This document shows, piece after piece, positions 58,767 to 59,690 of a stretch of 64,000 nt of DNA. The stretch's first letter is position 1, and the number at the start of each line of letters is the position of its first letter. The DNA lies in IMG/VR virus record IMGVR_UViG_3300021364_000005, one strand, 5' to 3'. A program made the translations under genes and the position numbers. Below the pieces are notes generated by a model that worked only from the letters and a program-made list of their open reading frames with translations, made no database searches and was not told the DNA's origin. Origin of the DNA: a virus (Duplodnaviria; Caudoviricetes).

Positions 58767-59153
58767 TTATTGTGAGTCTACGTTTGCACCTGCATCGTCT
58801 GCACCAGGATGCTCGCCTGCTGACCAACTTACTTTTGCAACATCAGCTGTTCCGCCTTCGTATTGGATCTTACGATTGTAAAATCTTGTAACTTGAACTG
58901 TTGATGAATCGTCAAGTGTTGCGTGTACTGTAAAATCACCTGCTACTAATGAAGCATTTGCTTTATTAACAAGGGTTAATACTTCTGATGTTGTACCATC
59001 TGTTACAGTAAATTTGTTTGCTGATCTTTGGTTTACAATCCAAGCTGGTGTTGTTGCACCTGCTACTTCACTGCCACCTGTAAAAAAGTAACGTGTGACT
59101 AGGATTTTGCCTGCGCCTTGACCAAAATGTCTTTTATTTAATGGACGTCCCAT
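58767..59153 (-). CDS. Hypothetical phage protein, 128 aa (MGRPLNKRHFG...)
   Basis: ORF track; AAGGAG SD; late promoter and structured leader upstream. Confidence 0.8.
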   Translation of the reverse strand: MGRPLNKRHFGQGAGKILVTRYFFTGGSEVAGATTPAWIVNQRSANKFTVTDGTTSEVLTLVNKANASLVAGDFTVHATLDDSSTVQVTRFYNRKIQYEGGTADVAKVSWSAGEHPGADDAGANVDSQ

Positions 59154-59241
59154 TTGTTTCTCCTTTTTGACGTTCTAAGTCTACGGGGTTGGTTCCCCAT
59201 AAGTCCTCATCAAGAGGTTCTCCTCTGACAATGTATTTATC
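59154..59241 (-). promoter_or_regulatory. Late promoter GATAAATA (59234-59241) and ~80-nt structured leader, possibly containing a 9-codon uORF
   Basis: AGAGG-AGAA-CCUCU; UAUGGGG-AACCAA-CCCCGUA; GAC/GUC or UUGAU/GUCAA; GAGGAG-N9-ATG AGG ACT TAT GGG GAA CCA ACC CCG TAG (59181-59210). Confidence 0.6.
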
Positions 59242-59277
59242 AAAAAAGAAAAAAGCTCGCACAGCGGCGAGCTTTTT
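59242..59277 (-). terminator. Rho-independent terminator (near-symmetric, possibly bidirectional) ending the putative ncRNA
   Basis: AAAAAGCTCGC-CGCTGT-GCGAGCTTTTT followed by further T-runs. Confidence 0.85.
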
Positions 59278-59280
59278 AAA

Positions 59281-59490
59281 TAAAAGGTGGGTGAAGGACT
59301 TGGGTATACCTCCAACTGCACGTCTAGATACCTGTCTATGTTACGTACAGAACCTTGCTCCGCTTAGTATTGCGATGTGCGTACTGCTTGTCTCCAAACT
59401 CTACGCCGGGCACTACCCCTAGCAAGTGCGCTTACCTTCTCTAGAAACAAAGTTATTAGCGCCAACCCATATAACAACGTCTTGTTATGT
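59281..59490 (-). ncRNA. Candidate ~200-nt structured non-coding RNA of unknown family
   Basis: Bounded by a sigma70 promoter and an intrinsic terminator. More GC-rich than its flanks, with no minus-strand ORF carrying a good SD. 5' hairpin AUAACAA-GACG-UUGUUAU; stems GCGCU/AGCGC, GGGU-AGU-GCCC, UAGA/UCUA and GGAGG/CCUUC; possible closing UGGGU/ACCCA. Confidence 0.6.
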
Positions 59491-59494
59491 TATT

Positions 59495-59522
59495 AATATA
59501 ACACAACTAAAATAAAAGTCAA
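59495..59522 (-). promoter_or_regulatory. Host sigma70-type promoter TTGACT-N16-TATATT with extended -10 (TGn)
   Basis: GGTTGACT TTTATTTTAGTTGTGT TATATT; the only clear sigma70 promoter I noticed in the window. Confidence 0.7.
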
Positions 59523-59605
59523 CCTTTTTTTAATAAAAAGTTAATCTTTTTTTCACGATGTTGTTTGATTAGTTGCTTGAAGCACCAAAACGTGAATCTA
59601 TCCAT
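59519..59605 (-). CDS. 28-aa basic peptide MDRFTFWCFKQLIKQHREKKINFLLKKG, downstream of the glutamine riboswitch (not in the ORF track)
   Basis: GAGGAG SD 7 nt before the ATG. The TGA stop overlaps the -35 box of the next promoter. Confidence 0.65.
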   Translation of the reverse strand: MDRFTFWCFKQLIKQHREKKINFLLKKG

Positions 59606-59634
59606 AACACTTCTCCTCGTTAAAGGTTAAAGTG

Positions 59635-59676
59635 CGTTCCTTCGCCTTATGCTACTTCCGTCCCGTAGGATGAACG
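59635..59676 (-). ncRNA. glnA RNA motif / glutamine-I riboswitch aptamer
   Basis: CGUUC A UCC-UACG-GGA CGGAAGUA GC-AUAAG-GC GAAG GAACG. P1 is CGUUC/GAACG, P2 has a UACG tetraloop, the junction is CGGAAGUA, and there is an E-loop AGUA/GAA. This is the architecture of the known glnA aptamer. Confidence 0.85.
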
Positions 59677-59682
59677 TAATAA

Positions 59683-59690
59683 TATTTAGT
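59683..59690 (-). promoter_or_regulatory. Late promoter ACTAAATA placing +1 at about the riboswitch 5' end
   Basis: TAAATA ends 6 nt upstream of aptamer P1, directly after the capsid terminator. Confidence 0.65.

What the first reader, a model, noticed from the sequence alone, without database searches (positions are those of the whole stretch)
59242..59522. Stand-alone ~200-nt ORF-less RNA with its own sigma70 promoter and terminator inside the late region
Seen in sequence: TTGACT-N16-(TGT)TATATT, then a 7-bp 5' hairpin, several further helices and a possible 5'/3' closing stem ending ...CACCCACC, then a strong terminator. The stretch is GC-richer than its flanks and has no credible minus-strand ORF. 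All other promoters I found here are TAAATA-type, so this unit is probably expressed early. I could not match it to tmRNA, RNase P, 6S, SRP or the small ribozymes. Inference: a functional phage ncRNA of unknown family. The peptide's stop codon overlaps its -35 box, so peptide and RNA may form one module (regulator/target or toxin/antitoxin-like).
Basis: partly seen in the sequence, partly recalled or inferred. Interest (0 to 1): 0.8.

Follow-up and report, generated by a model that had tools for sequence, protein, structure and literature searches.

The report
Free-standing manA RNA gene in jumbo phage
The ORF-less stretch is a real RNA gene, but of a known family: the "manA" RNA, an orphan riboswitch candidate recently shown to build RNA cages in vitro. 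Here and in related giant phages it has its own promoter and terminator, so it looks like an independent RNA product rather than a switch for a neighbouring gene.

Summary
On the minus strand, TTGACT-N16-TGT-TATATT (59522-59495) is followed by a 205-nt structured RNA (59487-59283) and then an 11-bp terminator (59277-59250).

The RNA does belong to a known family. It is a full-length match to Rfam manA (RF01745): 80.9 bits against a gathering score of 55.2, E 5e-19.

Uncultured relatives (capsid protein 80-94% identical) carry 21 full-length copies at the same site, downstream of the capsid gene.
- All but one or two keep a TTGAC -35, and all keep the -10 element.
- 19 of 21 are followed within 3-9 nt by a terminator whose stem sequence differs between loci. 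One is followed by a tRNA.
- The helices covary (26 pairs with changes on both sides; 0/500 shuffles reach this).
- No antiterminator is predicted, and the next gene usually has its own TAAATA-type promoter and freshwater-2 leader.

Classic marine manA RNAs also start right at a sigma70 promoter (46/60). About half of them, however, abut an ORF.

Best reading: a host-RNAP-transcribed, free-standing RNA of about 240 nt that acts in trans. It probably self-assembles through the loop-loop contacts seen by cryo-EM in other manA RNAs.

The suggested peptide/RNA "module" amounts only to shared transcription architecture.

It is a new, divergent member of a known family. This scan has flagged manA-like RNAs in other phages before.

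The parts
59495..59522 (-). Sigma70-type promoter with extended -10: TTGACT (59522-59517), 16-nt spacer, TGT, TATATT (59500-59495). Predicted start at about 59488.
   Evidence: 10/12 match, TG present. An equivalent GGTTGAC-N16/17-TGnTATAnT lies upstream of manA in the relatives. In 46/60 classic manA loci a strict promoter ends 3-10 nt before manA nt 1, against 0.045 expected.
59283..59487 (-). manA RNA (Rfam RF01745), full model 1-192. Elements: P1 hairpin 59488-59471; closing helix 59469-59465 with 59292-59288; four-way junction; loop L5 59416-59411; L7 59370-59365; L8 59334-59329; L9 59308-59298.
   Evidence: 80.9 bits, gathering score 55.2, E 5e-19. The MFE fold reproduces the helices, z -3.1. 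Covariation in 13 relatives.
59241..59277 (-). Intrinsic terminator: 11-bp stem (59277-59267 with 59260-59250), 6-nt loop, then the T-rich tail TCTTTTTTG (59249-59241).
   Evidence: Hairpin dG is -14.3 kcal/mol and mean pair probability is 0.95 in the full transcript. 19 of 21 relatives have a terminator of different sequence at the same place.
59519..59605 (-). 28-aa basic peptide ORF. Its TGA stop overlaps the manA -35 box. It belongs to the upstream cassette and has no terminator before manA.
   Evidence: The peptide is conserved in L009, L010, L011, L047, L059 and L063. There are no Pfam or PHROG hits.
59631..59678 (-). Glutamine riboswitch aptamer (RF01739). It lies about 5 nt after a TAAATA motif (59688-59683) and upstream of the peptide's ribosome-binding site.
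   Evidence: 49.2 bits, gathering score 35. The same arrangement is seen in 10 relatives.
59234..59241 (-). GATAAATA, a T4-late-promoter-like motif between the manA terminator and the next gene's leader.
   Evidence: all 5 copies in the window are on the coding strand. The motif is conserved after the manA terminator in most relatives.
59151..59219 (-). freshwater-2-like leader (RF02980, below the gathering score here). It covers the ribosome-binding site and ATG of the 128-aa gene (59153-58767).
   Evidence: 45.0 bits, gathering score 49.9. The syntenic element scores above threshold in relatives (54-77 bits) and is found in 56 loci by nhmmer.

Best explanation
The stretch is a free-standing gene for a manA-class RNA (Rfam RF01745).

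How it is made (inferred from sequence): host sigma70 RNA polymerase starts at about 59488 from an extended -10 promoter. It transcribes the 205-nt manA fold and stops at the intrinsic terminator near 59245, giving an RNA of about 240 nt. When the upstream late (TAAATA) promoter fires, the glutamine-riboswitch/peptide transcript probably reads into the same RNA and ends at the same terminator.

How it acts (inferred): the RNA itself is the product. It is not a leader that controls the next gene. That gene is separated from it by the terminator and has its own late-type promoter and its own freshwater-2 leader.

Likely mechanism (by analogy): cryo-EM structures of other manA RNAs show pentamer-based decamers and a 60-mer cage held by L5-L7' and L8-L9' kissing loops. 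This RNA most likely also self-assembles through those loop-loop contacts, whose complementarity is kept here. It would then act in trans during infection as an RNA scaffold or decoy. Its cellular target is unknown.

Genomic setting: the unit is an optional cassette in a variable spacer downstream of the major capsid gene, in a clade of uncultured aquatic jumbo phages related to Rak2/CBB/GAP32-type phages.
For: Identity:
- Full-length Rfam match above the gathering score.
- The MFE fold reproduces the model.

Selection on structure, in 13 aligned relatives:
- 27/37 RNAalifold pairs show compensatory changes.
- For the Rfam-derived structure, 79.4% of cells are paired against 67.5% in shuffles.
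- 26 pairs have changes on both sides against 17 in shuffles (0/500 reach this).
- The covariation score is 0.374, against 0.165 in shuffles and at most 0.125 when slid.

Free-standing unit:
- 21 full-length copies lie in relatives, with the promoter conserved upstream.
- 19 of 21 have a terminator 3-9 nt after the RNA, with unrelated stem sequences.
- One copy is followed 5 nt later by a tRNA.
- Terminator pair probability is at least 0.93 in full transcripts, so no antiterminator is predicted.
- The downstream gene varies between loci. It may be the freshwater-2 gene, an 89-aa ORF with its own sigma70 promoter, or a 356-aa ORF.
- Where manA is absent, the freshwater-2 leader is still present, in 56 loci.

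Family-wide:
- 46/60 classic manA RNAs begin 3-10 nt after a strict sigma70 promoter.
- Some classic copies are followed by terminators or tRNAs.

Self-assembly:
- The cryo-EM preprint 10.64898/2026.07.01.735769 describes the oligomers and kissing loops.
- L5-L7 pairing is 92% kept in the clade, with a G-C/A-U switch at one pair (8 against 5 sequences).
- L8-L9 complementarity of 4-6 Watson-Crick pairs is seen in 11/21 copies, using at least 6 different duplex sequences.

Presence in RNA libraries: identical contigs occur in RNA libraries from three studies.
Against: - No transcript ends or strand were measured. The RNA-library evidence is assembled contigs that may break at strain variation and may include DNA.
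- About half of classic manA RNAs abut an ORF start within 11-50 nt. This fits the original cis-regulatory proposal, so the family as a whole may act in cis. This clade could instead be a case of read-through control that folding energies do not reveal.
- Oligomerisation is shown only in vitro, for other family members. Loop complementarity cannot tell intramolecular from intermolecular pairing.
- L8-L9 support is only suggestive (own mean 3.6 bp against a cross-pairing mean of 2.8 bp).
- No biological target is known.
Confidence: 0.6

Rival explanations
1. Cis-acting riboswitch or attenuator. The manA fold senses a ligand, and the terminator is its expression platform, setting read-through into the freshwater-2 leader and the 128-aa structural gene.
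For: - Rfam and Weinberg et al. 2010 class manA as a cis-regulatory riboswitch candidate.
- The terminator follows within 5 nt of the fold.
- Roughly half of classic manA RNAs directly precede ORFs.
Against: - Terminator stems differ completely between loci and show no conserved complementarity to manA. They keep a pair probability of at least 0.93 in the full transcript.
- A late-promoter-like GATAAATA and a separate leader lie between the terminator and the gene. They are also present in the many relatives that lack manA.
- The downstream gene is not constant. In one locus it is a tRNA.
Confidence: 0.1
2. 3'-UTR element, or functional partner, of the glutamine-riboswitch-controlled peptide. 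manA would stabilise, localise or respond to the peptide mRNA.
For: - The peptide cassette has no terminator of its own, and its stop codon overlaps the manA -35 box.
- All 8 glutamine-riboswitch cassettes with readable flank are followed by manA.
- One RNA-library contig bridges the peptide and the manA 5' end.
Against: - 13 of 21 manA units lack the cassette, including the closest relative L001.
- The peptide differs between groups, while manA keeps its own promoter everywhere.
- The OM43 phage Melnitz has the riboswitch and a similar peptide but no manA.
- The 8 co-occurrences reduce to about 3 independent lineages.
Confidence: 0.12
3. Trans-acting monomeric small RNA or protein decoy. It would be free-standing as above, but would work as a single molecule (for example by binding a host or phage protein) rather than as an assembly.
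For: - The promoter/terminator architecture is the same as in the best explanation.
- L5-L7 and L8-L9 complementarity could equally be intramolecular tertiary contacts.
- The preprint's assemblies were formed in vitro at about 3 mg/mL RNA and 10 mM Mg.
Against: - In all five manA RNAs examined by cryo-EM these loops make contacts between molecules, and discrete oligomers formed.
- The same loops are complementary here.
Confidence: 0.15
4. Chance match or decaying remnant with no function.
For: - The promoter pattern alone is not enriched in the window.
- Most relatives score below the Rfam gathering threshold.
Against: - E 5e-19 and a full-length match.
- 21 syntenic copies with compensatory changes and conserved promoter and terminator.
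Confidence: 0.01

Closest known systems
manA RNA motif (Rfam RF01745; Weinberg et al. 2010, PMC2864571), classic marine/cyanophage form
   Same: - Same fold over the full model: P1, closing helix, four-way junction, P8 and P9.
- Complementary L5/L7 and L8/L9 loops.
- It begins a few nt after a sigma70 promoter, as 46/60 classic copies do.
- It is phage-borne and aquatic.
   Different: - It scores 81 bits here, and 37-58 bits in most clade members, against 159-197 bits for classic copies.
- It sits in jumbo phages related to Rak2/CBB/GAP32-type phages of Proteobacteria, not in T4-like cyanophages.
- It is almost always closed by its own terminator rather than abutting an ORF.
manA assemblies solved by cryo-EM (bioRxiv 10.64898/2026.07.01.735769)
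   Same: Same family. The loops that form the L5-L7' and L8-L9' kissing contacts are complementary here too, and L5-L7 covaries in the clade.
   Different: No structure or oligomer data exist for this subfamily. The preprint still describes manA as a putative cis-regulatory element and does not address transcription units.
Large self-assembling ornate RNAs of phages and bacteria (ROOL, GOLLD) and phi29 pRNA. This comparison is from my own knowledge.
   Same: Free-standing, often phage-encoded RNAs that multimerise through loop-loop contacts. GOLLD and ROOL often lie near tRNA genes, as some manA copies do.
   Different: There is no sequence or fold relationship. Those RNAs are 400-800 nt (pRNA about 120-170 nt). 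pRNA has a defined role in the packaging motor, which is not indicated here.
Transcription-terminating riboswitches
   Same: A structured aptamer-like domain at the 5' end of a transcript, followed closely by a terminator hairpin.
   Different: There is no overlap or alternative pairing between domain and terminator. Terminator sequences are unconstrained. The downstream gene has its own promoter.

Membership tests
manA RNA (Rfam RF01745) | Covariance-model score at or above the curated gathering score (55.2 bits), over the full model | tested here: met
   80.9 bits, E 5e-19, model positions 1-192 of 192, minus strand.
manA RNA (Rfam RF01745) | The model's helices (P1, closing helix, P3, four-way junction P4-P7, P8, P9) can form and are kept by compensatory change | tested here: met
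   The MFE fold reproduces them. In 13 relatives, 26 pairs have changes on both sides (0/500 shuffles reach this) and the covariation score is 0.374 against 0.165. The P3 apical stem is poorly supported in my MAFFT alignment (41% paired).
manA RNA (Rfam RF01745) | Complementary L5/L7 and L8/L9 loops (the kissing contacts of the cryo-EM structures) | tested here: met
   L5-L7: UAGUG with UACUA in the window, 92% kept in the clade, with G-C (8 sequences) or A-U (5 sequences) at one pair. L8-L9: GGUAU with AUACC in the window, and at least 4 bp in 11/21 relatives, which is suggestive only.
manA RNA (Rfam RF01745) | Homo-oligomerisation into pentamer-based assemblies | not testable with these tools
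   Known only from cryo-EM of five other manA RNAs.
manA RNA as a cis-regulatory 5' UTR element (Rfam type 'Cis-reg') | Lies in the 5' UTR of, and is co-transcribed with, the downstream protein gene | tested here: not met
   A strong terminator lies 5 nt after the fold, followed by a separate promoter-like motif and leader. 19 of 21 relatives are the same.
Riboswitch (generic) | An expression platform whose structure competes with the aptamer | tested here: not met
   The terminator forms with mean pair probability of at least 0.93 in full-length transcripts. There is no conserved complementarity between it and manA.
Riboswitch (generic) | Specific ligand binding | not testable with these tools
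   No ligand is known for manA.

The most novel reading that the evidence does not exclude
manA RNAs are not riboswitches. They would be a class of free-standing phage RNAs transcribed early by host RNA polymerase, working as self-assembled RNA particles (pentamer-based rings or cages) inside the infected cell. This jumbo-phage clade gives the cleanest genetic evidence: nearly every copy is a promoter-RNA-terminator cassette. In the classic cyanophage copies that precede ORFs or tRNAs, the same RNA would simply sit at the 5' end of a longer early transcript.
Probability: 0.35. Interest if true: 0.8.

Novelty: new member of a known kind. Interest (0 to 1): 0.5.

Why it matters
manA has been an orphan 'riboswitch candidate' since 2010, and a 2026 preprint shows it can build a 60-subunit RNA cage in vitro. 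No biological role or transcript architecture has been described for it.

Three points from this locus and its relatives bear on that.
- The RNA starts exactly at a sigma70 promoter across the family.
- In one phage lineage it is nearly always closed by its own terminator, so it is made as a discrete product.
- A divergent subfamily, mostly below Rfam's threshold, is common in uncultured jumbo phages of non-cyanobacterial hosts.

Together these shift the question from 'what ligand does it sense' to 'what does the RNA particle do in infection'. They also define exact ends for constructs.

Tried and rejected
- Own-genome search: no genome is held for this window.
- Cultured systems: three cultured jumbo relatives (Vibrio 2.275.O, Sinorhizobium Phosso, Pectobacterium CBB) and the OM43 phage Melnitz have no manA match. 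The tool warns that its control genomes found nothing either, so absence is not proven. blastn of the spacer against GenBank phages found only the glutamine-riboswitch part.
- RNA evidence: laying four RNA runs gave contigs only, with no read ends or strand. A 194-nt contig identical to 59286-59468 looks like a discrete RNA, but it may simply end where strains diverge.
- Promoter significance from the window alone: not significant.
- Literature: searches for the freshwater-2 motif and for cyanophage transcript maps covering manA gave nothing usable. The Weinberg supplements held no further text on manA.
- Proteins: the 28-aa peptide and the 128-aa downstream protein have no Pfam or PHROG family.
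- First nhmmer profile: it missed divergent copies. A second round with the 13-sequence profile was needed.
- Covariance model: I did not build my own. The counts rest on MAFFT alignments, which misalign P1 and the 5' strand of the closing helix between subtypes.

Full report
**What is there**

Reading the minus strand, the spacer between the major capsid gene (60906-59740) and the next gene (59153-58767) holds four units in a row.
- The capsid gene's terminator (59719-59696).
- A TAAATA motif (59688-59683), a glutamine riboswitch (59678-59631) and a 28-aa ORF (59605-59519).
- TTGACT-N16-TGT-TATATT (59522-59495), then a 205-nt ORF-less stretch, then an 11-bp terminator with a T-run (59277-59241).
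- GATAAATA (59241-59234), then a structured leader that runs into the ATG of the 128-aa gene.

The core is GC-richer than its flanks (0.49 against 0.28-0.43). Only short, unconserved ORFs overlap it.

**Identity**

cmscan of the whole window gives two hits above the curated thresholds.
- manA RNA (RF01745) at 59487-59283 on the minus strand: 80.9 bits (gathering score 55.2), E 5e-19, model positions 1-192 of 192.
- The glutamine riboswitch (RF01739) at 59678-59631.

A permissive scan adds a sub-threshold freshwater-2 match (RF02980, 45.0 against 49.9 bits) at 59219-59151.

Its '5'/3' closing stem ending CACCCACC' is the helix that Rfam writes in square brackets (UGGGU 59469-59465 with ACCCA 59292-59288).

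An unconstrained MFE fold of 59488-59245 reproduces P1, the closing helix, the four-way junction, P8, P9 and the terminator (-79.4 kcal/mol, z -3.1).

**The phage**

No genome is held for the window.
- The capsid gene is 68% identical in DNA, and 70-71% in protein, to jumbo phages of Proteobacteria. These include Rak2/CBB/GAP32-type phages, Vibrio phage 2.275.O and Sinorhizobium phage Phosso.
- IMG/VR holds hundreds of relatives. I kept 80 loci with 80-94% capsid identity, some on contigs of 175-210 kb.
- Runs that hold the sequence are from seawater, estuary and marsh samples.
- The lineage is therefore an uncultured aquatic jumbo phage, not a T4-like cyanophage, where manA was described.

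**Relatives**

The capsid-to-next-gene spacer varies from about 160 to 1380 nt. The freshwater-2 leader is almost universal there (56 loci; 54-77 bits in Rfam).

manA is an optional cassette. Two rounds of nhmmer plus Rfam give 21 full-length copies and 3 truncated ones.
- 7 score at or above the gathering score.
- 12 are full-length at 37-53 bits.
- 2 are seen by nhmmer only.

Classic marine copies score 159-197 bits. This is therefore a divergent subfamily that standard Rfam annotation mostly misses.

**A self-contained transcription unit**

- In the relatives, manA is preceded by GGTTGAC-N16/17-(TGn)TATAnT, ending about 7 nt before the RNA. One locus has TTGCTT and one has TTGATT as the -35.
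- In 19 of 21 copies a terminator follows within 3-9 nt. Its stem (9-18 bp, -12 to -20 kcal/mol) has a different sequence in nearly every locus while the RNA is conserved.
- In L042 a tRNA gene starts 5 nt after manA. L044 shows no terminator.
- Folded within the full transcript, the terminator pairs keep a mean probability of at least 0.93. No competing antiterminator is therefore predicted.
- A GATAAATA motif usually follows the terminator. All five copies of this motif in the window lie on the coding strand.
- The gene after the cassette differs between loci. It can be the freshwater-2 gene, an 89-aa ORF with its own sigma70 promoter, or a 356-aa ORF.

These facts argue against control of a particular downstream gene.

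**Structure under selection**

On a 13-sequence alignment, RNAalifold finds 27 of 37 pairs with compensatory changes. For the Rfam-derived structure:
- 79.4% of cells pair, against 67.5% in shuffles.
- 26 pairs carry changes on both sides, against 17 in shuffles (0/500 shuffles reach this).
- The covariation score is 0.374, against 0.165 in shuffles and at most 0.125 when the partners are slid.

Indels are not multiples of three, and there is no coding pattern.

**The wider family**

A pattern scan for the conserved 3' end returned 119 viral loci. All 20 that I tested are manA at 159-197 bits.
- All 20 have TTGACA-N17-TATAnT ending a few nt before manA nt 1. Often an upstream terminator hairpin carries the -35 in its loop.
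- Over 60 distinct copies with complete 5' ends, 46 have a strict promoter ending 3-10 nt upstream, against 0.045 expected.
- Downstream the picture is mixed, across 93 extracts.
  - About half have an ORF start within 11-50 nt, which is the published '5' UTR' picture. About 15 of these have a TAAATA motif in between.
  - About 21 have a conserved AGACCTAAGATGCAA...GGTCT element.
  - About 22 have a terminator-like hairpin, about a dozen of them that same element ending in a T-run.
  - Five have a tRNA within 10-52 nt.

Promoter-proximity is thus a family trait. A terminator on nearly every copy is the special feature of this clade.

**Mechanism**

Weinberg et al. proposed a riboswitch, but no ligand is known.

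A 2026 preprint reports cryo-EM of five manA RNAs.
- They form decamers, an octamer and a 60-mer icosahedral cage, all built from pentamers.
- The pentamers are held by L5-L7' kissing loops, together with L8-L9' or L3-L8' kissing loops and, in one RNA, a GNRA loop-receptor contact.

In the Rfam consensus, L5/L7 (UGGU/ACCA) and L8/L9 (ACUGUA/UACAGU) are complementary.

In the window:
- L5 UAGUG can pair with L7 UACUA.
- L8 GGUAU can pair with L9 AUACC.

Across the clade:
- RNAalifold picked the L5-L7 pairing on its own. It is 92% kept, with G-C in 8 sequences and A-U in 5 at one position.
- L8-L9 complementarity of 4-6 Watson-Crick pairs occurs in 11/21 copies, against 19.5% of cross-pairings. 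It uses at least six different duplex sequences. This is suggestive, not conclusive.

I therefore commit to a free-standing, trans-acting RNA that self-assembles.
- Shown: family membership, conservation, and the promoter/terminator architecture.
- Inferred: early timing, discrete ends, oligomerisation in vivo, and any function.

**RNA evidence**

Four RNA-library runs from three studies hold the sequence as contigs.
- A 194-nt contig is identical to 59286-59468, with no cover of the flanks in that run.
- A 175-nt contig is identical to 59336-59501.
- One contig bridges the peptide ORF and the manA 5' end.

Contigs carry no strand or end information. They can break at strain-variable flanks, and the libraries may contain DNA. 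This shows presence only.

**The peptide link**

- The glutamine-riboswitch cassette lacks its own terminator. In all 8 loci with readable flank it is followed by manA.
- 13 of 21 manA units lack the cassette, including the closest relative L001.
- The riboswitch drives different small basic ORFs in different loci.
- Melnitz has the riboswitch and a similar peptide but no manA.

The link is best read as two adjacent cassettes that share a terminator. It does not look like a toxin-antitoxin or regulator-target pair.

**Verdict**

This scan has already flagged manA-like RNAs as free-standing genes in other phages. The present case differs in being a bona fide, above-threshold manA.

Novelty: a new, divergent member of a known kind. 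Interest is moderate, because it bears on what the cage-forming manA RNA does.

Noticed in passing
window 59519-59690 (-); L203:1500-1669 (+): The glutamine riboswitch drives a small basic peptide with a shared F/Y-x-x-W-C-F/Y...KG pattern. The peptide occurs in this jumbo-phage clade and also in the OM43 phage Melnitz (32 aa after an internal ATG). The Melnitz record instead annotates a minus-strand ORF there, and its tmRNA feature overlaps the riboswitch by about 38 nt. Other clade members put 50-77 aa basic ORFs behind the same riboswitch.
   Followed up: partly
window 59151-59219 (-); 56 of loci L001-L080: The freshwater-2 RNA (RF02980) is the near-universal 5' leader of the gene that follows the capsid gene in this clade. 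That gene encodes an MGRPLNKR... protein with no Pfam or PHROG family. The leader is preceded by GATAAATAC, and the motif includes the ribosome-binding site and ATG.
   Followed up: partly
L063:4456-4527; L076:4322-4396: Phage-encoded PqqA (PQQ precursor peptide, PF08042; E 1e-11, above the cutoff), with good ribosome-binding sites, in the capsid-downstream spacer of two relatives. This hints at a PQQ-using, perhaps methylotrophic, proteobacterial host. It is not present in the window's spacer.
   Followed up: partly
L081-L199 (classic manA loci), e.g. upstream of L087:3525 and downstream of L086:3486: Two recurring features flank classic manA. First, an upstream terminator hairpin whose loop is the -35 TTGACA of the manA promoter. 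Second, in about 21 loci, a conserved downstream element AGACCTAAGATGCAA...GGTCT, often followed by a T-run. This element matched no Rfam family at gathering score in the 20 loci scanned.
   Followed up: no
L001-L080, capsid gene to next gene: The spacer after the capsid gene is a hot spot for small cassettes and ranges from 160 to 1380 nt. Contents include manA, the glutamine riboswitch with its peptide, pqqA, a tRNA (L042:4499-4570), small ORFs, and a Cys-rich 356-aa ORF not identified here (L031:4766-5836, true start probably later).
   Followed up: partly
window 4016, 9545, 27720, 56859, 59234 (all minus strand): All five GATAAATA motifs in the window lie on the coding strand. The count itself is not above chance (5 against 4.3 expected), but the strand bias fits a T4-type late promoter.
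   Followed up: no
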